From: an uncultured virus (IMG/VR IMGVR_UViG_3300035670_000133)
Taxonomy: Duplodnaviria > Heunggongvirae > Uroviricota > Caudoviricetes
Strand: one strand, 5' to 3'
IMG/VR virus record: IMGVR_UViG_3300035670_000133
Length of the DNA stretch: 64,000 nt
The notes beneath the pieces are model-generated. The model ran no database searches. It was not told the origin of the DNA and saw only the letters and a program-made list of their open reading frames with translations. The position numbers and the translations under genes were made by a program. Below, one piece after another: positions 24,229 through 56,408 of the stretch (within the stretch, counting starts at the first letter, position 1; every line of letters begins with the position of its first letter).

Positions 24229-25924
24229 GATGATGATGATTGTGTTGGTGTTGGTTACAGATAGAGACTTACGATACGTTCGTTGTAAGCGTCACGATGT
24301 TTATCATCATCGTACCAGTCGTCTAGTTCTTTCGTAGATTGTTCATGCTCTAGCTGTCTGCTAAGTGCGTCACACTTGTCAGCAAGTGCCTCACACTGAT
24401 CATAGAGTTTGTGTACACGATCCCAGTCTTTAGCCTGTCGAGCATTAACAATCAGCTGATCAATCAGCTTGATCTGTTCATTCAGTGCGGTGATAGTTTC
24501 AGTCATGATCACTTAAACATTGCGTTCCAAAGTGCGTTAACGATGTGATCACGCACATCCTCACGCTGTGTGTCACGAACAGTCAGCCGGCAAGTTTCAG
24601 CAAACTGATTGTTCTTGCTGTGCAAAACTACAACCTGCGTGGGTGATAGCTTCATCACGCAAGTCTCAAACGAAAGGCGTTGTGATTCAGTCATGATCAG
24701 ATTGCGATGGTGATGGATAGTTTCAGGCGTAAGTAAGAAGCTTGCCGATAGGCATCTTTGAGAAGGCAGACTTAGCTTCCATAACTGTCAGGAACTCACC
24801 TACAGTTTCATTGACAATCTTGCTGCCGACAGATCTGTACACCGTGAGTTTGTACTTATCATCGAGGTTGACATTCTTAGCAATGTAACCGAGAGGGATT
24901 GTGCCAACCTTGATAGAGAGCCAGTAGATAGAAGGCACGTCATTCCAGAGTTCGAAGCTAATCATGATGATGTGAATGTGATGGGATTGTGTTAGTTAAG
25001 ATCAGCAGTAGTAACGGCCAACGATGACATCATCGCCGCACAGTTTGACTAAAGTTCCGCTGAAATAGGAGTCGCTGCTGATACCGTGCCAACCCTTAAA
25101 CATACCGTCAGGGTTAGTGTTAGTCAGGAACTCGTTGAGATTGTAATAACGATTGCCATACTTAAAGAATGAACAATTAGAGTCAAACTCATCGTCGCTC
25201 ATCCAATCAAACTGCTTGCGGAGTTTGATACGCTCAGCGCCAGAAAACTCGCAAGTGAACAACAGCCGGCGTGGCTGATTGTTGGTCTTAATTGTCACTT
25301 CAGTCATACGTTGTACCTGGAATGAACATGGTGAGGGTAGAGGCCCTCAGTGTGCATTGTACTGCACAGGGAGAGCGTCACACTCAGAGAGTGAAACGAA
25401 GCTTTGCACCATGATCAAACGTGATCACGAATACAAACTAACCACACCCAAATAGAGACCAGGTACGAAATACCTGGCCCCTACAGGATGCAATTCTGGG
25501 AAACTGACCCCAAATTAAAGTCAGTTAGGGTGCGCATATAACGCACAAAAGCTATTAAATTGTGCCGAACTGTAAGATTCTCAGCCCGGCTGCAGGATGA
25601 TGACCGTAGGAGAGACTCCTAAGGCTCTGTCCAGCGTACCTGTGTGAGGGACAGATACTCTGGACAGGACATTCTGCAGACCCACGCATGGCGAGAGCGT
25701 GGCAAGTAACGCCGCTAAGTGATACAGCACGACTGTATCTTTCCTGTTCTCAAGGAAGTTAAATAGTTTTCGGCACCGTGCACACTTAGCCAGTCGGGTT
25801 GCAACTGTATTGTGCTCGGGGGATCGCTCGCGCCCCTAGTTCCATCTCATGACGGTGCCTGCTATACAGAATGAAGTTAACTGTGCCTTAGGCTTTCCGT
25901 GCAAACTATCTCAGCACAGTTAAC

Positions 25925-25943
25925 TATTCAGTTTTCAAGGTTC
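25925..25943 (-). promoter_or_regulatory. boxA-like antitermination motif 2
   Basis: GAACCTTGAAAACTGAATA; the first 12 nt match the cyanobacterial rrn boxA GAACCTTGAAAA. Confidence 0.7.
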
Positions 25944-26075
25944 CTCCCCCTGATACCTCACACCTAGCCTGCCCGTTTCCGGCCCATCACCGACCCCTTG
26001 CGCCCCTACGTTTCGGCACACTGTGCCTACCATCAGAGCGAGGTCTGGCTGTGACACGTTATGCCACAGACTAGG

Positions 26076-26094
26076 TATTCAGTTATCAAGGTGC
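26076..26094 (-). promoter_or_regulatory. boxA-like antitermination motif 1
   Basis: GCACCTTGATAACTGAATA, 17/19 identical to motif 2, preceded by a GGCC-ATCAC-GGCC hairpin. Confidence 0.7.
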
Positions 26095-26116
26095 GGGCCG
26101 TGATGGCCATGCCCAG

Positions 26117-26145
26117 ATCCTACAGCATGGTGCGCAGCTTGTCGG
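26117..26145 (-). promoter_or_regulatory. Putative early promoter
   Basis: CCGACA-N17-TAGGAT just upstream of the hairpin-boxA. Confidence 0.5.
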
Positions 26146-26695
26146 GATGGTGTGAAACAAAGCGAAACAATCGGCCGGGATCACATAGGATCGCAGGGGC
26201 GCGTTGCTTCAGTCTCACACCGTAACCCTGGTGGGCTGGCGTGGTGGCTGCAGGTTGTCCAGGTTCCGCGTCCGGGGCTGAGCCCCATCGGCTTGTGCCA
26301 ATGGTAAGGGCAAGACGGGCCGATGCGATACCGACCTTGTGCCGCTATGTCGACCGTCACACTAGGTGCGCTCAGTGAGCACTGCGCGAACAGGAGAGGA
26401 AACGCGCGACGCGTGCGCGAGAGGGTAGCACACGGCCGGCAGTTAGTATAAAGAATAAAGAACTACCCCCTGATGACCGTATAAACAATTAAACAACACT
26501 AAGTATAAATAATAAACAATACAATTAATTATACAAACCGTGTGCCGCTATGTAACAAATAGTGGGCGCAATCTGCCCGCAACCCGGCCTTTTTTTTATA
26601 TATACGCTTTACGCGACGACGCGGGCGATACCCTTTTCATAATCTTGGGGGGAAACTGACTTCAAAAGGTTCAGTGCCAGTATACTAGCAGCGGC

Positions 26696-26768
26696 GGGGG
26701 TTTAGCTTTCTGGCGAAAGCAGCGTCCTCATAAGACGCGGAAGGTGGGTTCGATCCCCACAACCCCTA
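26696..26768 (+). tRNA. tRNA with CAT anticodon (elongator Met or Ile2)
   Basis: Cloverleaf: GGGGGTT/AACCCCT, GCGTC-CTCATAA-GACGC, GTGGG-TTCGATC-CCCAC. No initiator GGG/CCC stem and no CCA. Confidence 0.9.
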
Positions 26769-26849
26769 TTGAAAAAAAATTTTCGCCGCGTGGTTGTCGT
26801 ATAAAACCTTTTTCCGCACTTAAGCTTGTGTATACGTTCGTGCAGTCGA

Positions 26850-43983: not shown

Positions 43984-44014
43984 GTTAATATAGTGAGACC
44001 TAATAAAGCTCACT

Positions 44015-44830
44015 GTGCTCTTAGACTGCTTTACGTATTTTAATGAGCGTGAACTACTTGAGCTCCGTATTCGGACGCTTGAGGATCATGTTGATGGCTT
44101 CCTTATTACCGACGCCAACCGGACTCACGCGACTGGTGAACTGAAGCCGTTTACTTGTCTAGAGACTATTCGGGATCTCGGTCTTCCAGAAGAAAAAATT
44201 CAAGTCATGCACGTTGAGCTCCCTTCTTTGGAGGAAGCTCCGGATCCTTGGATTCGTGAAAGAGGTCAGCGTGACGCACTCGGCGTTGGGCTACACCTTA
44301 TGGATGACGATGATATTTTTATCTGCTCAGATTGCGACGAAATCGCGAATCCGGATAAGTTGCCAGAAGTAATAGAAGCTGTTAAAGAGCATAAGGATAA
44401 AGTTGTCAGACTGAGTATGTCTATGCACTATGGCCGAGCTGATAGGCAACTTGTTTCGCCTGAGGGCGAGCTATTCGATTGGCGCTGCGGCGTGGTTAGC
44501 ACTGTAGGTCAGCTAAAAGACTTTGGAACTCTGTCCTCTATGCGTTCTACACAAAATAATTACTACGTTGGTAGGCGAGATGCCGGTTGGCATTTTTCCT
44601 GGATGGGTGATTCTGATAGGCGCCTTACGAAGTTAAAGTCAATCGCTGAAGCCTACATATGGGACCGGCCAGAAGTTCAGAAACTCTGTAAGGAGTTTGA
44701 ACCTAACGAAGGCAATACAGATATGCTGGGACGTCAGGATCATTTAATTGCCACGTACCCTATCGAGGATTTACCCAAGGAAGCGGTTAAACTGGAAAGA
44801 GTAAAAAAGTACCTTCTTCCCGATGGCTAA
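44015..44830 (+). CDS. GT17-like N-acetylglucosaminyltransferase
   Basis: DCFTYFNERELLELR, SDCDEI, GWHFSW. Confidence 0.88.
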   Translation: MLLDCFTYFNERELLELRIRTLEDHVDGFLITDANRTHATGELKPFTCLETIRDLGLPEEKIQVMHVELPSLEEAPDPWIRERGQRDALGVGLHLMDDDDIFICSDCDEIANPDKLPEVIEAVKEHKDKVVRLSMSMHYGRADRQLVSPEGELFDWRCGVVSTVGQLKDFGTLSSMRSTQNNYYVGRRDAGWHFSWMGDSDRRLTKLKSIAEAYIWDRPEVQKLCKEFEPNEGNTDMLGRQDHLIATYPIEDLPKEAVKLERVKKYLLPDG

Positions 44831-44981
44831 AGGTATGCCAGCTGAGCTGCTTAAAAAGTTTGCAGCGGACCGCGAAGCTAAGAAAGCCCCCAGTGGCGAG
44901 GAGGTCAGCGGCGGTTCTGACAGCATGAAGCGTGCCAAAGCTAAAGCCAAGAAAGCTAAGGAAAGCATTTTCCGTAAATGA
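44823..44981 (+). CDS. Small Lys-rich protein (52 aa)
   Basis: Not in the ORF track: MAKGMPAELLKKF...KAKAKKAKESIFRK. Confidence 0.55.
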   Translation: MAKGMPAELLKKFAADREAKKAPSGEEVSGGSDSMKRAKAKAKKAKESIFRK

Positions 44982-45015
44982 TCCTCTAAACGGATCCCCT
45001 CACTTGTGTGTATAG

Positions 45016-47241
45016 ATGTCCAGCTCGCTTGAAACTAGGAAAAGATTCACCGAGATCTTAGAGGCGTCACGCACTCAGGATCGGAGCAACCAGTCTTCGA
45101 CGATGGTTGTTCTGAGTCATCTCCAGCAAATGACCCTTCTCATGATCAAGAAGGGTCTTGCTTTCTACTGCGACCAGGACACATTTAAGAGTCGTACACG
45201 TTTTCTCGAAGACGTTATCGCTCTCAACAAATTAGATATTCGCTTTCCGGCGATTATTCGTAATTTTTTGATCGACGGCTGTGGGTTGTTTTACTTCAGA
45301 CCTGATCCAAAGCTGAAATATCAGATTTATTTCTTTAATAAAAATCAGTATCGTGTTTACCATGACGTTAACGGTAACGTAGAAGAAGTAATTATTGTCT
45401 ATAGCTATAAGGTAAAGAACGCTAACCTAGGTTTACCTAGTAACAGCTATGGGCAGAATAAGCGTTATGTGCGTTTAACTATTACTGCTGATGAGATCAG
45501 CGAAGTCGAGACTGATACTGAGCTGAGTTTTGATTTAGAGCCAGGCGCTGTACTCACACCAGCTAAGAGGCGCCCTAATAATCTTGGTTTTATTCCTGCT
45601 GTTGAGGTTTTAAATAAACCAAACGCCAGCGGTACAGAAGGTGAGGGCGAGTTTGATCCCTTCATGGAGCAGATCGTTTTACATGATCAGCTCACTCGGA
45701 ACATTGCCAAAAACATTGAGTTTTTTGGCAACCCGACTCTGATTAGCTCGCGGCCTCGTAGCGATCTCGTCGAAGCCAACGATTCGCAAAACACTTTCCG
45801 GCCCACGATCAGCAGTCAGTCTGGTTTTGCAGGTCCGGATAGCCCATCGACTCGTGTAAGCGAGCCGTTCGGAGCCGGCATGGGTTCTGGTCTTCGCGTT
45901 CCGCGAATTATTGCGAACGTTGAACCGTCCGACCGCGTGGGCTACATGACGCCTGACCCGGTTAACGGGGACATGAATCGATACACTCTTCTTCTCCGTG
46001 AAGAGATCCGTACGGCTCTCGGCGGCGTTGATGAGATTTCTATCTCAGCAGGCGCAACAGCTACTGAGATTAAAGGTTTGATGGGTCGGGCTCAGGCCAC
46101 GGCACTCCGTAAGAACAAGAGTTTTCTTACGTATGGATTTAATCGCCTGTTGGAGATGATGATTTATCACCAAGAGGTTATTTTCCGTGAATCTTTTATC
46201 GCCGCCTCTGGTTTAAAGGAGCCAAAACCTCCGGTCGAGGAAACGGAAGAAAGTATTCAAAAATATCAAACGGCTCTAACCAAGTTTGAGGCAAAAGTTA
46301 CGCAGACTATTCAACTAGCTCTGCAGGAAAATAAGGTTCCTCCTGGAGTTATCGGCCTACCTGAAGATGGAGAACGCACGGTAACTTATAGGTACCAAGG
46401 TGACGTTTACGAAGATACCGCTTATGATATAAACCAGAAGTCAATCGTTGTTCGTAACTTACAGGAACTCGGTGTGGATAGCATCGAGGCTCTTAAGTTT
46501 CTGTTCCCCGAGAAAACCGACTCTGAGCGGGCTGAAATGTTGAAGGGCTTCCCCTTCCGCATGGTTCAGCAAACACAAACAGCAATGCAACAATTTCTGG
46601 TATTATTAAGCCAGATGTTGCAGTCTCCGCATCCTCTTGCGCCTAATCAGCCTCTTGCGGCTGATCCTAGACTGAATATCACTCCGCTCCTTTACAGGAC
46701 ATTCGACCACCTCGCGGAAGAACTAACTTACTCGGGTAGCTATGAGCCAGCAGATCCAAGCTTCGACCCCGAGCCCGGTCTCCCCGGCGGCAGCCCCGGC
46801 GGTATCATCGGACCAGGGCTCAACCGCCTACCCGCAGTGGGTGGCGCAAACCTCTACCCCGGCGGTAGCTTCGGTACCTACAGCCCAACCGCCGTCGCAG
46901 GTGGCACCGGCCTCGGTCCCTTCTACCAACAGCCAGTTCAGCCAGTTAACGTCTCAGTCCTCCCCCAGCAATCCCTGGGAGGCAGCGATGGGTACCCTGG
47001 AACGGGTGCTGTCGCAGGTGAACTCTCAGTCCCCCAGCCTGGGTCAACAGTCGCCTTACCAGGTAACTCAGCAACCGGCTACTCAACTGAGCAGTCAGAG
47101 TTTACAGGCCCAACCTTGGGCTTACCAGGAACAGCAGGTAGCGCAGACATTGCCTACCAACGCCTCACAGATCCAAACTTCCTCGCCGACTTCTACGGCC
47201 CCGCAAACGAGCGTAAGTCCCGTAACCGCAGAGGTCGTTAA
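45016..47241 (+). CDS. Portal protein
   Basis: Lies between terL and capsid; IDGCGLFYF and LGFIPAVEV portal-like segments; long disordered tail. Confidence 0.8.
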   Translation: MSSSLETRKRFTEILEASRTQDRSNQSSTMVVLSHLQQMTLLMIKKGLAFYCDQDTFKSRTRFLEDVIALNKLDIRFPAIIRNFLIDGCGLFYFRPDPKLKYQIYFFNKNQYRVYHDVNGNVEEVIIVYSYKVKNANLGLPSNSYGQNKRYVRLTITADEISEVETDTELSFDLEPGAVLTPAKRRPNNLGFIPAVEVLNKPNASGTEGEGEFDPFMEQIVLHDQLTRNIAKNIEFFGNPTLISSRPRSDLVEANDSQNTFRPTISSQSGFAGPDSPSTRVSEPFGAGMGSGLRVPRIIANVEPSDRVGYMTPDPVNGDMNRYTLLLREEIRTALGGVDEISISAGATATEIKGLMGRAQATALRKNKSFLTYGFNRLLEMMIYHQEVIFRESFIAASGLKEPKPPVEETEESIQKYQTALTKFEAKVTQTIQLALQENKVPPGVIGLPEDGERTVTYRYQGDVYEDTAYDINQKSIVVRNLQELGVDSIEALKFLFPEKTDSERAEMLKGFPFRMVQQTQTAMQQFLVLLSQMLQSPHPLAPNQPLAADPRLNITPLLYRTFDHLAEELTYSGSYEPADPSFDPEPGLPGGSPGGIIGPGLNRLPAVGGANLYPGGSFGTYSPTAVAGGTGLGPFYQQPVQPVNVSVLPQQSLGGSDGYPGTGAVAGELSVPQPGSTVALPGNSATGYSTEQSEFTGPTLGLPGTAGSADIAYQRLTDPNFLADFYGPANERKSRNRRGR

Positions 47242-47668
47242 TCACTTCGGCCTGGAAGCTCCTGGCATCCTGAATCAGTACGCTTGTTCCCTTGAGGATC
47301 TCCTCATGGATCAAGCTCAAAAGATGGATGTTCTTTCTGCTCGCCACGATGCGATGCAAACCATCCTGACTGATCCTGAGCATCTCGCTAACTACACTGA
47401 CCGCTACTTCACTGAAGTGGTGCCCGTGGATATCGACGGCGATACTCAGGCTTATCAGCCTCAGCAGATTCAGGCTTATCAACCCAACTACGACATGCCT
47501 GCACCTCCCGCTAACGCAGGTGGTGTGAACACTGGTGCACAACCTCAGCAACAGTGGGAGCAGTTCAGCGACGTTATGAATCGCAGCCCTGAGAACGCTT
47601 GGCGTGTTCTTCAGCAAATGGGTCCTGAAGCTATGCGTAGCAAGCTTCTCTTTATGGATCCTGCTTGA
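46742..47668 (+). CDS. Putative capsid scaffolding protein
   Basis: Q/P/S-rich with a helical C-terminus; followed by a terminator; overlaps the portal by 500 bp. Confidence 0.6.
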   Translation: MSQQIQASTPSPVSPAAAPAVSSDQGSTAYPQWVAQTSTPAVASVPTAQPPSQVAPASVPSTNSQFSQLTSQSSPSNPWEAAMGTLERVLSQVNSQSPSLGQQSPYQVTQQPATQLSSQSLQAQPWAYQEQQVAQTLPTNASQIQTSSPTSTAPQTSVSPVTAEVVNHFGLEAPGILNQYACSLEDLLMDQAQKMDVLSARHDAMQTILTDPEHLANYTDRYFTEVVPVDIDGDTQAYQPQQIQAYQPNYDMPAPPANAGGVNTGAQPQQQWEQFSDVMNRSPENAWRVLQQMGPEAMRSKLLFMDPA

Positions 47669-47691
47669 TAGCATTAAAGAGCCAAGGTCCG

Positions 47692-47719
47692 AAGCCCCCC
47701 GTGGTTGGGGGGCTTTTTT
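47692..47719 (+). terminator. Intrinsic terminator
   Basis: AAGCCCCCC-GTGGTT-GGGGGGCTTTTTT. Confidence 0.85.
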
Positions 47720-47878
47720 CTTGCTAACCTTTATTTATCGAGGTATTTACCATGCGAGCTTTAGGTGATCGGCGACGTAAGGCTCCTATCGAGCCTGCTA
47801 AAGAAGAATCCCCAAAGACGGAAACACCCGTTGTAGAAGAAACCAAGCAAACTGATGAGTTTGATCAGTCTGTAACTA

Positions 47879-48214
47879 TCAGCTGATTTCGTCGTCGGTT
47901 TTACCGAATCTTTTCTCGACTTCTTTTTCGGCTATACGCTCAGCTATGGCCAAAATTCGTATACCTGAGTATCCGATAATAAAAGAGACTGCAACTGACT
48001 CAGCTTTTGTGAGTTTAAACCGCTCCTCTATCGCTGGGCTTACAAACGTAGCCAACATAAAGCCGACAACAGAGGCTTTTATCAGATAGGGGATTACCTT
48101 TTTAATGCCCCGTGGGTGGGTAAAGCTCTCTGTGATAGAGCCTGAAAAACAAGCTATAGAGGCTTCTGGGTCTTCAAAAAACACAGTAAGGGCTTTCTCG
48201 AAGTGAGGCTGCAT
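47879..48214 (-). CDS. Holin-like membrane protein
   Basis: Two to three hydrophobic helices, FIIGYSG motif and a charged C-terminus. Confidence 0.6.
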   Translation of the reverse strand: MQPHFEKALTVFFEDPEASIACFSGSITESFTHPRGIKKVIPYLIKASVVGFMLATFVSPAIEERFKLTKAESVAVSFIIGYSGIRILAIAERIAEKEVEKRFGKTDDEIS

Positions 48215-48277
48215 TCGCCCTTACGTTGCTCTTAAATATTGTAGACGAAGTACAATTAAGTTATCTGGAGTGTCACT

Positions 48278-49081
48278 ATGGTGTATACGCCGCAGACTAA
48301 TTGGAAGTACGACAATAACCTCTACCACCCGATTCAATCTGGTCCGCAGCGAACTGGGGATGACTTAGATCTTCGTGACACCTACTTAACAATTTCCAGT
48401 GGTTATGTAACTCCTTCTGGGATTAGTCAGACGTGGTACGGAGTCAACGACGAGGGCGCAGATTTTGGCCGGATTCCAGTAGGTCCACCAAACGTAAGCG
48501 GCTACTTTACAACTGAATGGCGTGCAGTACCGCCAGCAGTATCTGGTTATTGGACTAACTACGAGAACACGCAGCCACACGCTTCAGGTTTACTCGATAG
48601 CTATGTAGGCTTTAGGGCTCAGGGTCTCTATAGCACTGCTAATTCCACGGTTCAGACTGCTCTTGGACCCCAGCCTGGTTTAAGGAATTTTGGTACTCAC
48701 ACTTGGTATGGGGAGCAGATACCCGATAACCAGCTTTACAGTCCTTTCCAAACTCCTAGCTCTAATGACAACACGCTCGATGGTGGAGGTATTACAGGAG
48801 GTGGTGTAACACACCCCACCTTACGATCCCCAACACTTACAAACCCTACTAACGACACTACAGGCTCTCGTGCCGCGTGGGTTTACCACTATCCGATTTA
48901 CTGCCAGTCGTTGACGGAGACTCGTTATACCGGTGTACCCGGTCAAATGGGTATCCCGGCTAGGAACAGTTATCGAGGCAAGTCTCTTCGTTACGTTCCT
49001 AACTACGGTTCGGTATATGGTGTGCTTGGTGAGGGTGTACGTAACATGGTGCGTACGTTTAGTCCTGGGACGAAGATTTAA
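48278..49081 (+). CDS. Hypothetical protein (probably structural)
   Basis: G/T/Y/P-rich 267-aa ORF before the capsid gene. Confidence 0.65.
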   Translation: MVYTPQTNWKYDNNLYHPIQSGPQRTGDDLDLRDTYLTISSGYVTPSGISQTWYGVNDEGADFGRIPVGPPNVSGYFTTEWRAVPPAVSGYWTNYENTQPHASGLLDSYVGFRAQGLYSTANSTVQTALGPQPGLRNFGTHTWYGEQIPDNQLYSPFQTPSSNDNTLDGGGITGGGVTHPTLRSPTLTNPTNDTTGSRAAWVYHYPIYCQSLTETRYTGVPGQMGIPARNSYRGKSLRYVPNYGSVYGVLGEGVRNMVRTFSPGTKI

Positions 49082-49165
49082 ACCTCTAAGAGTGCGACAA
49101 CTTGTTGTCTCGTAGGGCTTTTAAAGATTTAAGATTACTCTTGTAGTTTCTTCTGGAAATTATCG

Positions 49166-51605
49166 ATGTTCATCGATAGCTGAGTGCTCAGTTTGTCGCC
49201 TAGTCAGGTAACTGGCTAGTGATAACCGGGTGAATTCAGGGAAGCCCTTAGGCAACTCTTCTGAAACAATCGGCATAGCCGAGAACCTTGAAAATTAGAT
49301 CTTTATTTGGAGTAGGCATCCTCCGATAAAGAAGCCTGAGAGTACCTCCGTCTCAGAAGCGGGGGTATGGGTAATCCTGAGCGAAGCCAATCAAGCGTGA
49401 TTGGAACGTGCAGAGACTAGGTGGTGCAACACGATCTTGTTGCGTAATACACCATTAGCGCCCGGCATCCTGTTTTACAGGATGAAGAGATAGTCCACCT
49501 CCGTGGGAAACTGCGGGTTTAGGTGAATGATTTTCCGAAGATTCTTGGTGCCGAGCTGTACCGTCCCCACCCCGCATACATCGTTGAGATGGCTGCGGAG
49601 CCTGTTGTAGTCCATGACTTCAGCAAGCAACCAGGTCAGACAGTGCAGCTGGATCGTTATCGTTTCTTCGGTAACCCCGGCTCCAAAGAATCTCGCGAGC
49701 GTACTGCTGAGCAGACCATTGGTACTGCTAACAGCCGCAATATCGTGAAGGATAAGGTGCTCGTGACGCTTCGCGAGTACACCGGTCCCGCTGACCCGAG
49801 TGATCCCACTCAGCCCAGCACCTTCAAAATTGCTAAACCCTTGGCCCTCGTTTAAGAAATTAAGCGATGTGCACTCCGTGAATTGCTGGAATCCCTCCTG
49901 ACGTTTTAAACTGTCCGGGAAATCAGCAGCCAAGCTTGATGAGTAATCATCTTGAAGGTTCAACGACTAGGGTTGACTGTACGCTTGATCTTCTGCCTGT
50001 CGAAGATAGAGCTTTCTTAAAAGCTTGTATTTTTGGCGACGGTTGGTTAGGTCTCCAACGCAAAAAATTCGTACACCTACGAATAGGTCATTCTGCAAAA
50101 CAGTATGACTGGCTTGCCTTTAAGGCAAAGGAGATTAACCGAATCCTAGGTAAAGATAGAAAAGTTTTAGGTCCTTACTTGCAATCAGACGGCGTAAGTA
50201 AAGATAAGGAACATGAGTCTTATCTTTACTGCGTTGATGACCATGCTTTGTTCCGACCTTGGTTTTCTCGATGGTACGAGGTACCTCCTGAGGGTAAGGT
50301 GATTAAACACATTACCCACGATTTTTTATCTGACCTAGGGCTACGTGAGTTAGCTGTTCTATGGTGTGATGATGGCTCTGTTAGTTCTTCTAATAGAACC
50401 AAGTTACATAAATTAAAGGACGGTACTCTACGAAAATATCCGTACGTAGAAGCTCAAGGGCAAATTGCTCTTTGTTCTTTTAGTCTTGATGAGTACAGAC
50501 TTGTTCAAGACTGGTTATATTCCTTAACTGGAATTAAATGGCGTTACACGCCTCGGATAAGAGACAAAAGGGCAACATTAAGCATCGGGAAACGGAAACT
50601 ACGTGAGTTTTTACCTTTAATAGCTCCGTATGTACCTTCCTGCATGTCGTACAAAGTCGATCTTTCCCACTGCCGATTAAGGTAAAGGAAAGGACCCCAC
50701 GAGCGCGGAGCACCCAAACAGATAACGCTGTGGGTGATGATATAGTCTGAACTTACGGGATGGTAAACCGTAAGAACTAGAGGATAAAGAGCCTCTAGGA
50801 TAACAATTTGAGGGAAACACTGATTACCGCCCAGCGCCTGCTGCTGGACACCGGTAACCTCACCACCTTCCACCAATCGATCGGCAGCCTGACTCTGCTC
50901 GACGACTATCGTCGTTGGCGCGACCGGGTGTTCATCAACGAACTCCTGAAGGCTGTTTCCAAGGGTCAATCCTCTGATACCCAAGGCGGTTACTACTTCC
51001 CTGGTGACCTGGCCACTGGTGCTCTGAGCTACACCAACGCCGAGCAAGCTAAGTTCGACGTTAAGGATGACCTGCTGCGCGTGGTGAAGAGCCTGCGTAA
51101 GCGGAACACTCCCACCTTCCAGGACGGTTTTTATCGCTGCGTTTGCGATCCGACCTTCCTGATGCACCTGCGTCAGAACAGCGACTTCCGTGAAGTTGCT
51201 CGTTATCCTGGCAACGGGCAGATCAACCCCCTCATGTCCGGAATGCAGCCCAACGCTGCTCTGTACATGGGTCAAGGCTTCGGTCAGGCTACCTTCGTGG
51301 CCGGCGAGCCGATCATGCCCACCGGCTTTGTGTTTGAAGGCGTGCGCTTCTTCGAAAGCACCAACATGCCTACTCAAACTCAAAACGCGACCATCGCATC
51401 TTCGACCGCTGCTTACAACGCAGCTGTTGGTATCTTCTTTGGTCCTCAGGCCGTTGGTGTTGGCATCGGTGGCAACAATGCCCAGGTGCTCCTCAACAAC
51501 AACGACGACTTCAGCCGTTTTATCATGATGATTTGGAGCCTGTACGCAGGTTTCGAACTTCTGAACGCTGACTTCGTCACCGTTGGTTACTCTTTCGACG
51601 CTTGA
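49166..51605 (+). CDS. Major capsid protein, spliced: join(49166..49177,49526..49834,50811..51605), 371 aa
   Basis: Joined exons read MFID|NDFPKILGAEL...TFKIA|RETLITAQ... in frame; capsid-like GFVFEGVRFFESTN and FFGPQAVG segments. Confidence 0.88.
49178..49525 (+). mobile_element. Group I intron 1 (348 nt, no ORF)
   Basis: Exon U then terminal G; P1 with U.G wobble; P3 CCGGGTG/CGCCCGG; P7 GACTA (49415)/TAGTC (49491); extra helix between P7 and P3 (IA-like). Confidence 0.92.
49835..50810 (+). mobile_element. Group I intron 2 (976 nt) carrying a homing endonuclease
   Basis: P1 GCT|AA with TTGGC; P10 CCCT with exon AGGG; AATTGCTGGAA / AATCAGCAG core; P7 GACTA (49965)/TAGTC (50743); terminal G. 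Confidence 0.93.
49939..50685 (+). CDS. LAGLIDADG homing endonuclease (double motif)
   Basis: FLKACIFGDGWL and LAVLWCDDGSV motifs inside intron 2. Confidence 0.9.
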   Translation: MSNHLEGSTTRVDCTLDLLPVEDRAFLKACIFGDGWLGLQRKKFVHLRIGHSAKQYDWLAFKAKEINRILGKDRKVLGPYLQSDGVSKDKEHESYLYCVDDHALFRPWFSRWYEVPPEGKVIKHITHDFLSDLGLRELAVLWCDDGSVSSSNRTKLHKLKDGTLRKYPYVEAQGQIALCSFSLDEYRLVQDWLYSLTGIKWRYTPRIRDKRATLSIGKRKLREFLPLIAPYVPSCMSYKVDLSHCRLR

Positions 51606-51619
51606 GGAGGTAACTAACA

Positions 51620-52498
51620 ATGACGATCAACCCTAATCAGATCTCGGTTGCCAAGATTTATCCTGGTAACTACACCAACGTTCTTCGTTACTGGCACGAA
51701 GAAAAAACCATGCAGTTCGAGAACGCCAATGGCGTTCAAACGAGCTACACCAACCAACCCGTTGGTGGCCCTGTCGGCGTGGTGTTCCGTCCCGGTTGGA
51801 TTGCTCAGCAAGCCATCGGTTACGTTGACCTGAGCTATCAGGCACTGGGAACCAACAACCAGCTGGATTACTACACCCAGCCTTATGGTTCTGGTCAGAA
51901 CGCTGCTAATCAGCCGTTCCTGAATGCCAGCGTGATTATCCCCTCCCCCGACTACCACAAGGATGTTCGGGCGGATATCACCAACGGTATCACCGCTCCT
52001 TCGGGTGCATTCGTGTACCGCACCTCGCTCCGTGTTGACGGTGGCGATGTGGTTAGCTCTGGTGTTGCAGGTGGTTCTGCGACTCCTCAGCTGACTCTGA
52101 TCCCTGCGGTTGGCCAAGGTCTCCGCAACACCACCACCGTGGTGTCTGGTCAGTTCGGTACCTCTATCACCGGTTCCGACAGCCGTATCGCCAACGGTAG
52201 TGTTGCCTCCACTAACATCATCAACAGCAGCAGCCTGTCTGCTCTGACTGCTGATACTCAGTGGAAGCTCTTCACCACCACTAACCTTGGTGGGGTTGCT
52301 GCCTCTGGTCTGGCTCAAGGTTCGGGTATCTATGATCCCCGTGCTGGCGCTGGCAAACTGTCCGGCAAAAACAAAGCACTCGCTATTTGCGAAGTTTGCT
52401 GGATTGTTCCTGATGCTCCCCCGGAGCGTGCAGACCTTGCTCTGCAGCCCGCCGGCATCGTGGAATCCACCGCCTATACTTCGACAAGTCCTCAGTGA
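51620..52498 (+). CDS. Virion structural protein (minor capsid/decoration-like)
   Basis: GGAGG RBS; co-transcribed with the capsid gene and has similar codon bias. Confidence 0.7.
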   Translation: MTINPNQISVAKIYPGNYTNVLRYWHEEKTMQFENANGVQTSYTNQPVGGPVGVVFRPGWIAQQAIGYVDLSYQALGTNNQLDYYTQPYGSGQNAANQPFLNASVIIPSPDYHKDVRADITNGITAPSGAFVYRTSLRVDGGDVVSSGVAGGSATPQLTLIPAVGQGLRNTTTVVSGQFGTSITGSDSRIANGSVASTNIINSSSLSALTADTQWKLFTTTNLGGVAASGLAQGSGIYDPRAGAGKLSGKNKALAICEVCWIVPDAPPERADLALQPAGIVESTAYTSTSPQ

Positions 52499-52516
52499 CT
52501 TAGTGTTGCGTAGCCG

Positions 52517-52542
52517 ACCCCTCCTTTTGGAGGGGTTTTTTA
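52517..52542 (+). terminator. Intrinsic terminator
   Basis: ACCCCTCC-TTTT-GGAGGGGT plus T run. Confidence 0.85.
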
Positions 52543-52630
52543 TTGGTTTCCTGTTCTTAAGTAATTTTTTACAGTATTTAGTGTTTTCCGCTGTCAGAGT
52601 TAATAGTGCGTACCGTATTTATCCAGTTTT

Positions 52631-52894
52631 ATGGACAATCGGGAGCTTTCGGACCTTAAATTAGAGCGTAAAGAGTGCCCTAGATGCGGTGCTACTTGGC
52701 TCAACGGTATCCATCACTGGCGAACAGGGTATAAAGGTAATGAGTTAGACCTTGCAGGACTTGTTTGTAACCGAGTTAACGACTCAAGTTGTATAAACCC
52801 TAAAAAAGGGTGTACCGGAGGGGACACTTGGGAGAAGCGAGCCGAATTTTTGGGTAATTTTGAGCGAGAGCTGAAGCGTATGAGGGAAGATTGA
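52631..52894 (+). CDS. Cys-rich cyanophage-type hypothetical protein
   Basis: CPRCGATW...DLAGLVCN...CINP...GDTWEKR. Confidence 0.7.
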   Translation: MDNRELSDLKLERKECPRCGATWLNGIHHWRTGYKGNELDLAGLVCNRVNDSSCINPKKGCTGGDTWEKRAEFLGNFERELKRMRED

Positions 52895-52937
52895 GGTATT
52901 TTGGTCTAAACTACTGCTCACATACTGACTTTTTCAG

Positions 52938-53393
52938 ATGTCTGCCAAAGTCTATAAGCCCAGTGGCGTCAAAATCGACGTAATTTCTACTCACGACGAT
53001 GGTGAGTACTTTATGGTTCGGTCTAGCACCACGGGGCGCGTGTTCTTCGCCCATAAAGACCAGGTTGACGACCACACAGAAGATACAAGCCCCACACCGG
53101 GCACAAATTCGTTGCAAACTCGCCGTGGTCGGCGACCTTTGAAGAAGGAAGAGGGCGAAGTGGCTGTTGTGAAGCCGTTGCCCCCGACCGACAACCGCAT
53201 TAACTTAAATAATTTGACTCCTGAGGGTCTGACCCAGTGCCTGCCCGGTGTTGGCCTTAAGACTGCTAAGGAGATCGTTGAGCTTCGTCAGTCTCTTCCC
53301 GGTGAGCGCTTTACGAAGCTCGAGCAGCTTGAATCGATTAAGCGTGTTGAGTGGAAAGAAGTTTTTGCAACTGGTGTAATTTACGTCGAGTGA
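52938..53393 (+). CDS. Helix-hairpin-helix DNA-binding protein
   Basis: INLN...LPGVGLKTAKEIV...FTKLEQL. Confidence 0.8.
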   Translation: MSAKVYKPSGVKIDVISTHDDGEYFMVRSSTTGRVFFAHKDQVDDHTEDTSPTPGTNSLQTRRGRRPLKKEEGEVAVVKPLPPTDNRINLNNLTPEGLTQCLPGVGLKTAKEIVELRQSLPGERFTKLEQLESIKRVEWKEVFATGVIYVE

Positions 53394-53950
53394 TCTTCTG
53401 GGAAGTTTAACCAAGCAAACTCACCGAAGTATTCGATAGCCGCTTTGTCATAAGCACGGGCGGCTTCTTCTTCTGTTCTAAAGTTGCCTAAACTTATGTA
53501 TTTATAGTTAACCCTAATTCTTGAATAATACCTGTTATCTCTTTTGTCTTTGTAGTACCCTTTATACGTTTTACGGTTTCTTGGAGGTGAGTTAGCCATA
53601 TTTTGACTTCGTGTAGCTTTTCTTACTTTGCAGTTATTAGCTGAAGATCTATCCGCGTGGTCGATTTCAGTGTTCCCTGGATCGATTCCATTTTTTAAAG
53701 CGTAATAAATTCTGTGATTTAGGTAAGCTGTATTTTTAAGAGAAAACTCATAGTAAACAGTATTTTTTCTCCAACACTTGTTACCTACTGGATCCCCAAC
53801 TTTTACTCGGTTGCTGGGTCTCTTTATCCATCTAAGAGTTTCGGGGATCGATTCGTCTATCTCTATATATTCCGAAATTAGCTCAATATCTATCGGTTTG
53901 CAGTTCACGTAGAATGAGCGTATGTAGGCGAACTTTAGCAGATGGCTCAA
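53381..53950 (-). CDS. HNH-AP2 homing endonuclease
   Basis: HRIYY...IDHADR...NN..VRKATRSQN plus AP2 LGNF.TEEEAARAYD; AT-rich and antisense. The start may be GTG 53908. Confidence 0.88.
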   Translation of the reverse strand: MSHLLKFAYIRSFYVNCKPIDIELISEYIEIDESIPETLRWIKRPSNRVKVGDPVGNKCWRKNTVYYEFSLKNTAYLNHRIYYALKNGIDPGNTEIDHADRSSANNCKVRKATRSQNMANSPPRNRKTYKGYYKDKRDNRYYSRIRVNYKYISLGNFRTEEEAARAYDKAAIEYFGEFAWLNFPEDHST

Positions 53951-54562
53951 CTTTCACAGAATGAGTTAGAGCAAATCCAAAGTTATCTAGCGCAGCAAGG
54001 CGTAACATTTAATGCTACGAGCACAGACGCCACTAAGCGCGAGATCGTATACGCGGCGGTCAATCAGCTTACACGTCAACCTAGTCAAGTCTTTGGTTAC
54101 GCTCTTGACGATTTCAACTTCAGTCGTGTTGCGTATCACTTAGGTTACAATATCGCCACTGTACCTGCTGGTGATTATGCAAGGTTGCTGGAAGCATGTA
54201 ACAGCATACCTAGCGAGTTTTACTATGACAAGATTATTCAGCAAGTAGAGCGATGCGAAGAAGCTGAGCGTTTAACTGAGCTGGCTACTGGTCGAGCCAC
54301 CAGTCGTCAAGAGACAATTCTTGGTGACGTGTCTCGCTCTATTTCGATTCAGGACAAACGCGAAACTGCTCGTATTTGGAGAGAAAATTATCTCTTTGAA
54401 TGCGATCGTTTAGCGGGGATGCTTTATGTACCCAACTACAAGGACCCCGTGGCATCCCGCTATCGGTTTGAACGCAGCGGCGGAGAGTTCATACAAGCCA
54501 TACCTGGACCTCCGGATGTTTCCAGGGCAGATCGACTCTATTTTTATGCGAATTGGAGATAG
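53942..54562 (+). CDS. Putative head-tail connector protein
   Basis: Helical 206-aa protein after the capsid module; positional inference. Confidence 0.5.
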   Translation: MAQLSQNELEQIQSYLAQQGVTFNATSTDATKREIVYAAVNQLTRQPSQVFGYALDDFNFSRVAYHLGYNIATVPAGDYARLLEACNSIPSEFYYDKIIQQVERCEEAERLTELATGRATSRQETILGDVSRSISIQDKRETARIWRENYLFECDRLAGMLYVPNYKDPVASRYRFERSGGEFIQAIPGPPDVSRADRLYFYANWR

Positions 54563-54593
54563 ACTGTCTCTATTGATCTCGCGTTAGTTACAG

Positions 54594-56408
54594 ATGCAAT
54601 CGGGCATTCGCGGAGGAGTCGGTTTCCTTAGGAATTTAATCCAGCGTGCTGGCGGAGCTAAGCAAGCTCGTCAGTTAATGGAAGCCGTTCGGCAGACGCT
54701 TCCTGCAGCGGAGATGAGCGGTGTTCGTGGAATCAGTGAACCTGTACGGCGAGCAGCTGTACAAGCGGGTTTAGTAGACGAACTTACTGCGTTTCCTTCT
54801 GCTGTTTCTCGTCAAGGTGGGAACCTCGGTGTGCTCGGCACTCGTAATGTGCCTACTGCACGTCAGTTAGGTCAAGCCCCGGTACCTCAGTTTGGTCCTG
54901 GCTCTCGTACTCCTGTCGCACCTGCAGGTTCTCGTCCCGTAAATCAACTCCTGCCACAGCCTTATCAAGGGCCACGCCCTCGTGGCGGAGACATTGTACC
55001 TACTTCTTCTCCCGCGACAGCACCTGCTGCTACTCGCACTCAGTTTACTGAGGATTTAATTAGCACTCCTGTTACGCAGGGGCCGTCTCGTGCTCCCGTG
55101 CAAGGTCCGTCCATGACGGGTACTCCTGTACAAGGTCAGCTGGATCTTCGTTTCGGTCCCGGAGCTCGTTCGTCTGCTGAGTTCACGACCAGTAAAGGTG
55201 CAGTACGTCCTGTTGGCACCAACATCGCAGGACAGCCTTTCCGTGGCGGCCCTGTCGCTACTGAGCGCAATCTCGAAACATTTGCAATTAATAGAGCCGC
55301 TTCTGAACCTCTGGAAGCTGCTGCACAGCGTGTACCCCAGGGGCAAGGGTCTTTCTTTATTGAAAACACTCCTGATATCTGGACCGACGCTTTCCGTATG
55401 CGTCCGGAGTTAGTTCGTCAGCTCCCTGCTGAAGTACAGCGTCGCATCGGCACTACGATGATGCGTGAAGCGGCTGATCTCGGTCCGGTCGCACCTCGCC
55501 CGGCTTTTGGACCTAACGCTGGGCCTGCTCCTGCCGACTCCATTGTTACACGCGCCTTTTCTGGGGGTGCTGCTGGAGGCAATGAACTGGTTGATCTTGG
55601 AGCTCTAAGCGCTCTGATGAACAACCCTGCCATCCGTACCGCTTTAGGTCTAGGTGGCTTAGGTGCGATTGCTACCGGCGCGGCTTTCATGGGCGGCGAC
55701 CGTGATCGCACGGGCGAGACGACTGCTGGATCACCTCCGATGACCCCCGAGCAGCCTCTATTTCTTGAGTCAGACGGGAGTGTTTTAGGGACAGCGCCCG
55801 GAACGAATCTCGGTCTCAATCCTCCCGCGCCTGGCAATATTGACCCTTCCGCCCCTGCTCCGCAAATTACGAGCGGAGGTTTGGAGCGTGAAAGTGCTAT
55901 TCGAGAAGCACTAGCTCAAACTGCTCCGGGAGCAGCCGCTGTTATGCGTGCCGTCGAGCCCATGAGCCCTGAGAAATACCGCAGCATCGAGGAGTATGCA
56001 GCAGCTCGTCAAGCTTATGCCCAAGCTAAGCCACAAGTACAAGCTTTGATGCGGTACATGGAGACTCAGAGCCCCACTGCCGGCGGCGGCTTAGCCATGT
56101 GGGCCAGTAAGTATCCTGGTCTTGCTTCGAGTTACCAAGCACAGCAACAGCAACTTAAAAACCCTGCCGCTAATCAACAAAGCTCCGAGACAATCACAAC
56201 TACGACTGTGACTGCTCCCATCGGATCCGAAGTTTCTGCAGCCGCTGTGGGTAACGCAGAAGCTTTGTCAAATGCTGCTATAGCCCCTAGCGCAGGTGCA
56301 TTTGATATGGCTGATGTAACTCGCCCCCAGATTCAACCAAATCTGCAACGGGTACAAGAGTTTATTCAGCGTCAGGCTCCTCGCTCGGCTATGTATGCCG
56401 GTTATTGA
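54594..56408 (+). CDS. Large A/P/G-rich protein (possibly internal virion)
   Basis: 604-aa low-complexity ORF with a central hydrophobic Gly-rich segment. Confidence 0.65.
   Translation: MQSGIRGGVGFLRNLIQRAGGAKQARQLMEAVRQTLPAAEMSGVRGISEPVRRAAVQAGLVDELTAFPSAVSRQGGNLGVLGTRNVPTARQLGQAPVPQFGPGSRTPVAPAGSRPVNQLLPQPYQGPRPRGGDIVPTSSPATAPAATRTQFTEDLISTPVTQGPSRAPVQGPSMTGTPVQGQLDLRFGPGARSSAEFTTSKGAVRPVGTNIAGQPFRGGPVATERNLETFAINRAASEPLEAAAQRVPQGQGSFFIENTPDIWTDAFRMRPELVRQLPAEVQRRIGTTMMREAADLGPVAPRPAFGPNAGPAPADSIVTRAFSGGAAGGNELVDLGALSALMNNPAIRTALGLGGLGAIATGAAFMGGDRDRTGETTAGSPPMTPEQPLFLESDGSVLGTAPGTNLGLNPPAPGNIDPSAPAPQITSGGLERESAIREALAQTAPGAAAVMRAVEPMSPEKYRSIEEYAAARQAYAQAKPQVQALMRYMETQSPTAGGGLAMWASKYPGLASSYQAQQQQLKNPAANQQSSETITTTTVTAPIGSEVSAAAVGNAEALSNAAIAPSAGAFDMADVTRPQIQPNLQRVQEFIQRQAPRSAMYAGY

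What the first reader, a model, noticed from the sequence alone, without database searches (positions are those of the whole stretch)
49270..49294. A third exact boxA, with a preceding hairpin, inside capsid intron 1
Seen: the enlarged P5 region of the ORF-less intron contains TCGGC-ATA-GCCGA immediately followed by GAACCTTGAAAA (49283-49294) on the sense strand. This is the same hairpin-then-boxA layout as the early leader, about 115 nt after the capsid start codon, with a strong terminator downstream at 52517. Inferred: a self-splicing intron may carry an antitermination loading site into a coding region without altering the protein, so it could be a domesticated regulatory element. Together with the early leader, this would be a genome-wide boxA system.
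Basis: partly seen in the sequence, partly recalled or inferred. Interest (0 to 1): 0.8.

Follow-up and report, generated by a model that had tools for sequence, protein, structure and literature searches.

The report
Host rRNA boxA motif inside capsid intron
A self-splicing intron in a cyanophage capsid gene keeps an exposed stretch of RNA identical to the signal that the host's ribosomal RNA operons use to load transcription elongation factors, so the intron may borrow host factors, though this is untested.

Summary
The sequence is real. TCGGC-ATA-GCCGA (49270-49282) is followed directly by GAACCTTGAAAA (49283-49294, + strand). It lies in a ~120-nt extension of P5 in a group I intron (49178-49525) that interrupts the major capsid gene after codon 4.

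"Third exact boxA" is wrong. The window holds two exact copies and none with one mismatch.

The 12-mer is the published cyanobacterial rrn boxA. In eight distinct homologous introns it is invariant at 11 of 12 positions, while the flanking hairpins change by compensatory substitutions. A second intron backbone at the same site shares nothing in this domain except this block. The one variable position (A/C) matches the two natural host boxA forms. The motif is predicted to be mostly unpaired.

- Most capsid relatives have no intron at this site.
- Other relatives carry the same intron without the extension.
- Three near-complete related genomes have no boxA at all.
- The terminator at 52516 is present in 64 of 64 relatives whether or not they have the intron.
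- The likely host family has NusB but no Rho.

Best reading (about 0.4): a host boxB-boxA mimic that loads NusB-S10 on nascent intron RNA. The main rival (about 0.35) is a purely structural junction. No binding or read-through data exist.

The parts
49166..49177 (+). Capsid exon 1: ATG plus three codons (MFID). The 5' splice site follows T49177. The next in-frame intron codons are AGC TGA.
   Evidence: S-EIVl capsid ORF begins MFIDTDFPKIL. 69 intron-less relatives have a start codon plus three codons directly before exon 2. Alignments A1.
49178..49525 (+). Group I intron 1, 348 nt, without an ORF. P2 hairpin at 49200-49219 with a GUAA loop. Last base is G49525.
   Evidence: Rfam RF00028 81.5 bits. 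Boundaries come from the alignment with L006/L008/L055 and from exon conservation. The fold has z = -5.4.
49249..49368 (+). P5 peripheral extension (~120 nt), replaced by a 13-14-nt loop in short-form homologues.
   Evidence: L006/L008 lack it. (42 of 50 short). (contigs that skip 49248->49369 with 13 other letters between). Structure supported by covariation.
49258..49264 (+). CUUCUGA, the proposed pseudoknot strand that pairs with the loop UCAGAAG at 49353-49359.
   Evidence: Both strands are invariant in 8 sequences. In the second intron backbone the equivalent pair is GCACA/UGUGC, read by eye.
49270..49282 (+). Hairpin 1 (UCGGC-AUA-GCCGA), directly 5' of the motif.
   Evidence: Two of 5 pairs show compensatory changes and 100% of cells are paired. 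In the second backbone it is UCAGG...CCUGA.
49283..49294 (+). GAACCUUGAAAA: a conserved, mostly unpaired junction identical to cyanobacterial rrn boxA.
49300..49332 (+). Hairpin 2 of the extension.
   Evidence: All 7 outer pairs change on both sides between lineages.
49344..49366 (+). Hairpin 3 of the extension, with conserved loop UCUCAGAAG.
   Evidence: Six of 7 pairs show compensatory changes.
49526..49834 (+). Capsid exon 2 (NDFPKILGAELY...FKIA).
   Evidence: The end is inferred from the S-EIVl alignment (FKIA|RETL) and from joints.
49835..50810 (+). Group I intron 2, carrying a LAGLIDADG homing endonuclease ORF (49936-50685).
   Evidence: Rfam 26.5 bits, below the gathering score. PF03161 E = 1.8e-10. 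Boundaries are inferred.
50811..51605 (+). Capsid exon 3 (RETLITAQ... to the stop).
   Evidence: phrog_1357 major head protein, E = 2.2e-20. 599 relatives in IMG/VR.
52516..52537 (+). Terminator-like hairpin with a T-run, after the gene that follows the capsid gene.
   Evidence: An equivalent is present in 64 of 64 relatives with downstream sequence.
25932..25943 (-). The only other exact copy of the 12-mer. It is followed by CUGAAUAG and lies in a ~1.5-kb ORF-poor leader.

Best explanation
SHOWN
- The major capsid gene of this S-EIVl-like cyanophage is split after its fourth codon by a 348-nt group I intron.
- In one lineage of this intron the P5 loop has grown into a ~120-nt folded domain. 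It has three covarying hairpins and probably a loop-strand pseudoknot.
- Between hairpins 1 and 2 lies an unpaired stretch, GAACCUUGA(A/C)AA, that selection keeps constant while everything around it changes.
- The stretch is letter for letter the boxA of cyanobacterial rRNA operons. A hairpin sits directly 5' of it, as boxB does in the rRNA spacer.

INFERRED
- The element mimics the host rrn boxB-boxA (nut-like) site.
- As it leaves RNA polymerase, about 117 nt into the capsid message, it binds host NusB-S10.
- This tethers the nascent intron to the polymerase and converts the polymerase into an rRNA-type elongation complex.
- The most likely benefit is fast, pause-resistant transcription of about 2.3 kb of downstream pre-mRNA (the rest of intron 1, exon 2, intron 2, exon 3) that ribosomes cannot follow, because translation stops at a TGA two codons into the intron. 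Chaperoning of intron folding is a possible added benefit.
- The benefit is probably not read-through of the intrinsic terminator at 52516.
- On this reading the extension is an optional accessory that lowers the cost of the intron to its phage.
For: 1. Identity. The 12-mer is the stated boxA of cyanobacterial ITS (PMC8461337 passage).
2. Chance. About 0.007 exact copies are expected on the + strand of the window.
3. Conservation. Eleven of 12 motif columns are invariant in 8 distinct long-form introns, against 13 of 54 other unpaired columns and 17 of 48 paired columns. The flanking helices show 15 pairs with double changes, and 0 of 500 shuffles reach the observed value.
4. A second intron backbone at the same site (L184; L186/187/188/192) has different P4, hairpins and pseudoknot, yet keeps GAGAACCTTGACAATTAGA.
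5. The one variable position, A or C at position 10, is the position that differs between natural host boxA forms. The split was 87 A and 33 C among the 120 loci, and 19 A and 115 C at 134 places in the family of Synechococcus CS-1330 (hand count).
6. The invariant part covers GAACCUUG. This aligns with the 8 nt that NusB-NusE recognise in the Aquifex 12-mer GGCUCCUUGGCA, including the key G2, C5 and C6 (passages of PMC3177189). The same paper reports a dsRNA site contiguous with the boxA site, which would fit the abutting hairpin.
7. Accessibility. Mean unpaired probability is 0.58-0.86 in six lineages, against 0.35-0.44 for the whole intron.
8. The NusB domain is over cut-off in 31 of 31 genomes of the likely host family.
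9. The rRNA elongation complex depends mainly on boxA and has RNA-chaperone activity (passages of PMC8632103).
Against: - No binding, splicing or transcription data exist.
- The extension is not needed by the intron. 42 of 50 introns with the same 20-nt core have a 14-nt P5 loop, six of them at this same capsid site.
- 69 of the 80 capsid loci examined have no intron at this site (4 had too little upstream sequence or no exon-2 match).
- Three 78-84 kb relatives (97-100% complete by CheckV) have no boxA with one mismatch or fewer, so these phages do not generally depend on boxA.
- The downstream terminator is present in 64 of 64 relatives regardless of intron.
- The motif lacks the CUGCAUA (D4) that follows boxA in spacers. 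Most lineages have UUAGA instead.
- The conserved block extends beyond boxA (GA...UUAGA). That suits a structural junction as well.
- The A/C difference probably reflects a single evolutionary change.
- Hosts of the A-form and C-form phages are unknown.
- Rho was over cut-off in 0 of 31 genomes of the likely host family. The classical anti-Rho role of boxA therefore cannot be the benefit.
- After splicing, the motif leaves the transcript. Whether a complex would persist is unknown.
Confidence: 0.4

Rival explanations
1. Purely structural element. The A-rich unpaired stretch is a junction of a P5abc-like peripheral domain. It makes tertiary contacts with the intron core or within the extension. 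Its identity to boxA is coincidence.
For: - It lies in a multi-helix domain whose architecture is kept by covariation.
- Other unpaired pieces of the extension are also invariant within the first backbone: CUUCUGA, GCCUGA-AGU and the loop UCAGAAG.
- The conserved block is longer than boxA, with GA before it and UUAGA after it.
- From recalled knowledge, peripheral P5 extensions with A-rich bulges stabilise other group I introns (Tetrahymena P5abc).
- The extension is optional, as such stabilisers are.
Against: - A 12-of-12 match to the host signal is expected about 0.007 times per strand of the window.
- The match falls on the sense strand, unpaired, directly after a hairpin.
- The only variable position switches between the two natural host forms. 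That is 1 of 36 possible single substitutions.
- Between the two intron backbones every other part of the extension differs, yet this block stays.
- No conserved pairing partner was found. AAGGUUC in J6/7 of the second backbone is complementary to GAACCUU, but the first backbone has AACGUGC there (reading).
Confidence: 0.35
2. Decoy or sponge. The excised, stable intron from the highly expressed capsid message exposes boxA and titrates host NusB-S10 (or S1) away from host rRNA synthesis late in infection.
For: - The identity and conservation evidence is the same as for the best explanation.
- The motif leaves the mRNA with the intron, so a role in trans is natural.
- S1 is reported to bind boxA (passage of PMC8632103).
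Against: - There is no evidence on intron abundance or stability.
- The benefit late in infection is unclear.
- Most relatives do without it.
Confidence: 0.1
3. Binding site for another factor. The partner could be a phage protein or a host splicing cofactor. Alternatively the element is a DNA-level signal such as a promoter -35 box (TTGAAA/TTGACA lies inside the motif).
For: - Strong sequence-specific conservation.
- The C form contains TTGACA.
Against: - No conserved -10 element follows, because the downstream hairpin differs completely between lineages.
- The promoter scan of 44000-56000 lists no site here.
- No candidate protein was identified.
Confidence: 0.07
4. Chance or hitch-hiking: a neutral remnant, for example of a captured piece of host rrn spacer, with no present function.
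For: - Many windows were scanned, so rare coincidences occur.
- Only four or five independent lineages are known.
Against: - Eleven of 12 positions are invariant, while the adjacent helices were fully rewritten by compensatory change across two intron backbones.
- No homologue of the extension was found in the 401 cyanobacterial genomes searched. Two had weak matches to the intron core only.
Confidence: 0.05

Closest known systems
rrn nut-like antitermination sites (boxB-boxA-boxC) of bacterial rRNA operons, including the cyanobacterial ITS boxB/boxA/D4
   Same: - The 12-nt boxA is identical (A form here, C form in related introns).
- It is single-stranded, on the transcribed strand, with a hairpin directly 5', in the rrn order boxB then boxA (PMC8632103 passages).
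   Different: - It lies inside a self-splicing intron of a protein-coding phage gene, embedded in a folded domain.
- It lacks D4/boxC (UUAGA follows instead of CUGCAUA).
- It leaves the transcript on splicing.
- Binding of Nus factors is untested.
Phage lambda nutL/nutR and other boxA elements outside rrn (suhB leader, CRISPR array leaders; the latter recalled, only a search listing was seen)
   Same: A mobile element or non-rRNA transcript uses the host boxA signal, typically to protect long untranslated RNA.
   Different: - Lambda has boxA before boxB and needs the N protein. No N-like protein was sought or found here.
- The known cases counter Rho. Rho was not found over cut-off in 0 of 31 genomes of the likely host family.
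P5abc-type peripheral extensions of group I introns (Tetrahymena IC1; recalled)
   Same: An optional multi-helix domain inserted at P5, with an A-rich unpaired segment. Homologous introns function without it.
   Different: - No sequence similarity was tested.
- The architecture differs: three hairpins plus a loop-strand pseudoknot.
- The core is a small ~230-nt intron with GNRA L2 and L9 loops.
- The conserved unpaired segment equals a host protein-binding signal.
Short-form homologues of the same intron (L006, L008, L086 and others) and the group I introns of Klebsiella jumbo phages and the S-CBWM1 psbA gene
   Same: - The catalytic core is the same: 20-nt P3-P5 identity, and 76-83% identity over 49370-49496 to phage introns.
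- The short forms occupy the same capsid insertion site.
   Different: They have a 13-14-nt P5 loop and no boxA-like motif.

Membership tests
Group I intron (Rfam RF00028) | Covariance-model score above the curated gathering score | tested here: met
   81.5 bits against 50 for intron 1.
Group I intron (Rfam RF00028) | 5' splice site after U paired to G of the guide; terminal G; removal restores the reading frame of a conserved protein | tested here: met
   - Exon 1 ends ...GAT and the guide GUCG lies at about 49196.
- The intron ends at G49525.
- Joining the exons gives MFID|NDFPKIL, matching S-EIVl MFIDTDFPKIL and the intron-less relatives.
- The pairing was read by eye.
Group I intron (Rfam RF00028) | Self-splicing activity | not testable with these tools
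   Contigs from RNA libraries that join exons cannot be told from intron-less relatives.
rrn-type boxA (NusB-NusE loading site) | Sequence equals the host-clade rrn boxA | tested here: met
   12 of 12 to the published cyanobacterial boxA. Both A and C forms occur in cyanobacterial genomes in the GAACCTTGAMAACTG context.
rrn-type boxA (NusB-NusE loading site) | Single-stranded in the transcript, on the sense strand | tested here: met
   Mean predicted unpaired probability is 0.80 in the window and 0.58-0.86 over six lineages. It is on the + strand, inside the capsid transcription unit. This is prediction only.
rrn-type boxA (NusB-NusE loading site) | Companion elements: boxB hairpin upstream, boxC/D4 downstream | tested here: inconclusive
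   A covarying hairpin abuts the 5' side. D4 (CTGCATA) is absent: UUAGA follows in most lineages and CUGAG in L090.
rrn-type boxA (NusB-NusE loading site) | Binds NusB-S10 and changes elongation or termination | not testable with these tools
NusB is present in 31 of 31 genomes of the likely host family.
rrn-type boxA (NusB-NusE loading site) | Co-occurs with a need for it: conserved across relatives, or linked to a terminator | tested here: not met
   - The motif is absent (one mismatch or fewer) from 3 near-complete relatives.
- The terminator is present in 64 of 64 relatives regardless of intron.
- Rho is over cut-off in 0 of 31 host-family genomes.
P5abc-like peripheral stabiliser | Optional multi-helix insertion at P5, supported by covariation | tested here: met
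P5abc-like peripheral stabiliser | Tertiary contacts of the unpaired segment with the core; loss slows splicing | not testable with these tools
   No conserved partner was found by eye. This needs probing and kinetics.

The most novel reading that the evidence does not exclude
A self-splicing intron has acquired a copy of its host's rRNA antitermination signal (boxB-boxA). Each time the capsid gene is transcribed, the nascent intron loads NusB-S10 and turns the polymerase into an rRNA-type, chaperoning elongation complex. The intron thus brings its own remedy for the uncoupled, untranslatable RNA that it creates. The signal tracks the host's boxA form (A or C).
Probability: 0.35. Interest if true: 0.85.

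Novelty: new variant of a known kind. Interest (0 to 1): 0.62.

Why it matters
No paper found here describes a boxA-type signal inside a self-splicing intron (searches; library limited to open-access papers and bioRxiv). If the motif binds NusB-S10, three things follow:
- It would link intron biology with control of transcription elongation.
- It would show a way for a selfish element to reduce its cost to its carrier.
- It would give a natural handle for studying the almost unexplored rrn elongation complex of cyanobacteria, which lack Rho.

If the motif is only structural, it defines a new, well-supported peripheral domain of small phage group I introns. The exact identity to boxA would then be a notable coincidence.

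The question is directly testable, because natural controls exist: short-form introns and intron-less capsid genes at the same site.

Tried and rejected
1. More lineages of the extension were sought with patterns that avoid the motif: GCCTGARAGT..TCAGAAG in IMG/VR and TCAGAAG..GGGTAATCCTGAGC in metagenome contigs. In one search, 34 of 42 hits were unrelated. Only one new close variant (L178) was added.
2. RNA evidence for splicing. Only assembled contigs were available. Exon 2 to exon 3 joints in two RNA libraries, and short-P5 forms in RNA and DNA runs, cannot be told from intron-less or short-form relatives. Nothing can be said on splicing, on transcript ends, or on habitat from the small shares.
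3. The window's own assembly is not held. The nearest record, G001, had no match to the region and no boxA.
4. A homologue of the intron or its extension was sought in cyanobacterial genomes. Two of 401 had weak matches to the core only, so no host source was found among those searched.
5. A pairing partner for the motif was sought. GAAAA/UUUUC with exon 2 is only 5 bp and is not kept in L090. AAGGUUC in J6/7 occurs in the second backbone only. Both were rejected.
6. A T-loop reading of UUGAA was rejected because the C form breaks it. A promoter reading was rejected because no conserved -10 follows.
7. Co-variation between a leader boxA and the intron boxA across genomes could not be tested. 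No other genome examined has a leader copy.
8. Earlier notes of this scan held nothing for this genome.
9. No complex prediction was tried, because that tool takes proteins only.
Full report
WHAT IS THERE

The bases are as reported. TCGGCATAGCCGA lies at 49270-49282 and GAACCTTGAAAA at 49283-49294 on the + strand. Rfam finds a group I intron at 49121-49517 (81.5 bits, gathering score 50) and a weaker one at 49825-50774 (26.5 bits). In the alignment of the first, the finding lies in a long insertion in the P5 loop.

The surrounding gene is the major head protein (phrog_1357, E = 2.2e-20 for exon 3) of a phage related to Synechococcus phage S-EIVl.

The uninterrupted S-EIVl capsid ORF begins MFIDTDFPKIL. 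The true start here is therefore ATG 49166. Exon 1 is only ATGTTCATCGAT (49166-49177). The intron runs from 49178 to 49525 and ends in G. Exon 2 starts at AAT 49526. The P1 and P2 that Rfam places at 49121-49165 are misassigned.

In unspliced RNA, translation stops at a TGA two codons into the intron. A second intron (about 49835-50810) carries a LAGLIDADG endonuclease gene.

HOW MANY COPIES, AND CHANCE

The window holds two exact copies, the other at 25932-25943 on the - strand. It holds none with one mismatch, so "third exact boxA" is not borne out. A first-order Markov model expects 0.0065 exact copies on the + strand and 0.0092 on the - strand.

The 12-mer is named as the boxA of the cyanobacterial 16S-23S spacer in a passage of PMC8461337. 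Many of them are cyanobacteria: Trichodesmium, Nostoc, Fischerella, Prochlorococcus and Synechococcus. Typically a hairpin lies two or three bases upstream and CTGCATAG follows. The 15-mer also occurs in rrn-like contexts of Bacillota.

RELATIVES

The capsid has at least 599 relatives in IMG/VR, and the best 80 were kept.
- 69 of the 80 have a start codon and three codons directly in front of exon 2, so they have no intron at this site.
- 4 have an intron there: L055 long form, L006 and L008 short form, L056 second backbone.
- 3 could not be placed because of other introns.
- 4 had too little upstream sequence or no exon-2 match.

A scan for an invariant 20-mer of the intron core gave 50 loci.
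- 42 have a 14-nt P5 loop. Six of these sit at this same capsid site.
- 8 have a 118-126-nt extension.
- Of those 8, six carry the exact 12-mer and two (L090, L115) carry GAACCTTGACAA.

Scans keyed on other parts of the extension added only one close variant. A scan keyed on the motif found a second intron backbone at the same site (L184; L186, L187, L188, L192; this is also L056). Its P4, hairpins and loops all differ, but it keeps GAGAACCTTGACAATTAGA.

STRUCTURE AND CONSERVATION

I aligned eight distinct long-form sequences (A2) and tested a model of P4, P5, a short P5a, three hairpins and a loop-strand pseudoknot.
- 99.4% of cells pair.
- 15 pairs change on both sides. This is reached by 0 of 500 shuffles, and far exceeded the slid controls.
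- Compensatory changes occur in 2 of 5 pairs of hairpin 1, in 7 of 7 outer pairs of hairpin 2, and in 6 of 7 pairs of hairpin 3.
- The pseudoknot strands CUUCUGA/UCAGAAG never vary within this backbone. In the second backbone the equivalent strands read GCACA/UGUGC (read by eye).

The motif is the junction between hairpins 1 and 2. Eleven of its 12 columns are invariant, against 13 of 54 other unpaired columns and 17 of 48 paired columns of the extension.

Predicted unpaired probability of the motif averages 0.58-0.86 in six lineages, against 0.35-0.44 for whole introns.

THE VARIABLE POSITION

Position 10 is A in the window lineage, in L113 and in L084. It is C in L090 and in the second backbone. 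The same two forms occur in nature.
- Among the 120 genomic loci, 87 have A and 33 have C. The C form is the spacer boxA of the Prochlorococcus loci and of Synechococcus sp. CS-1330.
- In the family of that Synechococcus, 95 of 151 genomes match, at 134 places: 115 C and 19 A by my hand count.

This agreement probably rests on a single substitution. The hosts of the phages are unknown, so the support is modest.

The invariant GAACCUUG aligns with the eight nucleotides that NusB-NusE recognise in the Aquifex boxA 12-mer GGCUCCUUGGCA, including the critical G2, C5 and C6. The same paper reports a double-stranded RNA site contiguous with the boxA site (passages of PMC3177189).

WHAT SPEAKS AGAINST THE WIDER INTERPRETATION

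- Three related genomes of 78-84 kb (97-100% complete by CheckV) have no boxA with one mismatch or fewer. A 90-kb genome with the L090-type intron has only the intron copy.
- Four further intron-bearing contigs have only the intron copy. There is therefore no conserved genome-wide system.
- The leader copy in this window is lineage-specific. It lies about 590 nt downstream of a promoter-like site, in a ~1.5-kb ORF-poor region. In the leader's fold its 5' half is paired, and no hairpin abuts it.
- The terminator-like hairpin at 52516-52537 has an equivalent in 64 of 64 relatives with downstream sequence, and most of these have no intron at the site. Its read-through cannot depend on the intron in general.
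- In 31 genomes of the likely host family, the NusB domain is over cut-off in 31 and Rho in 0. Controls behaved as expected.
- From recalled knowledge, boxA-only complexes act mainly against Rho and only weakly on intrinsic terminators. Antitermination at 52516 is therefore an unlikely purpose.

MECHANISM

I commit, at about 0.4, to a mimic of the host boxB-boxA site that loads NusB-S10 on the nascent intron.
- The polymerase must cross about 2.3 kb that ribosomes cannot follow until both introns are removed. This is the situation of rRNA.
- The rRNA elongation complex is nucleated mainly by boxA, resists pausing and chaperones RNA folding (passages of PMC8632103).

The main rival, at about 0.35, is a purely structural junction of a P5abc-like stabiliser. 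Three points favour it: the extension is optional, the conserved block is longer than boxA, and other unpaired pieces are also conserved. Against it stand the exact identity, its persistence across two otherwise unrelated versions of the domain, and the host-like A/C switch.

A decoy role of the excised intron (0.1), another binding factor or a DNA signal (0.07), and neutrality (0.05) are less likely.

LIMITS

- Only four or five independent lineages are known.
- No RNA evidence for splicing could be obtained. The runs gave contigs only, and these are ambiguous against intron-less and short-form relatives.
- No homologue of the extension was found in 401 cyanobacterial genomes searched.
- No paper describing a boxA inside a group I intron, or boxA use by cyanophages, turned up. 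Subscription journals are not covered.
- Papers were seen only as search listings, abstracts and the passages quoted.
- The intron subgroup (IC3-like by recollection) was not tested.

Noticed in passing
window 25308-26820, - strand: A ~1.5-kb stretch without ORFs of 70 aa or more holds the other exact boxA (25932-25943), followed by CUGAAUAG, which resembles the spacer's D4. It lies about 590 nt downstream of a promoter-like site (26556-26528, 10 of 12) and about 625 nt upstream of the first - strand ORF. Two 2-mismatch copies lie just upstream (26083, 26255). Three near-complete related genomes have no such copy.
   Followed up: partly
window 49121-49165: Rfam aligns P1/P2 of intron 1 to the 5' untranslated region upstream of the capsid start. 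The real exon 1 (49166-49177), P1 and the GUAA-capped P2 (49200-49219) fall in what Rfam treats as an insertion.
   Followed up: yes
window 49835-50810: A second group I intron lies in the capsid gene. It scores below the Rfam gathering score and carries a LAGLIDADG homing endonuclease ORF (49936-50685). Related capsid genes carry further introns at other sites, for example just after ...TACCGGCC in L056 and L179.
   Followed up: partly
window 49370-49496; L181 (Klebsiella phage Muenster 302945-303067): The intron core is 79-83% identical to unannotated stretches of Klebsiella and Escherichia jumbo phages. In the one examined (Muenster) the stretch lies between tRNA genes. The core is also 76% identical to the annotated psbA intron 2 of Synechococcus phage S-CBWM1.
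   Followed up: partly
L001 (S-EIVl, KJ410740.1 60784-62010): The deposited annotation has a - strand hypothetical CDS and a short + strand CDS over what reads as one 383-aa + strand capsid ORF (L001 2486-3637).
   Followed up: partly
whole window: Matches to the 12-mer with two mismatches or fewer number 18, against 7.3 expected (0 of 100 shuffles reach 18). All seven left of 31 kb are on the - strand. This could be composition or codon bias and was not analysed.
   Followed up: no
L184, L186-L188 (second intron backbone): AAGGUUC in the P6/J6-7 region is a perfect complement of GAACCUU in the motif. This could allow an alternative fold. The window's backbone has AACGUGC there.
   Followed up: partly
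window 47691-47716 and 52516-52537: Two strong terminator-like hairpins on the + strand bracket a unit made of a 267-aa ORF, the capsid gene and a 292-aa ORF. Both ORFs are without Pfam or PHROG matches.
   Followed up: partly
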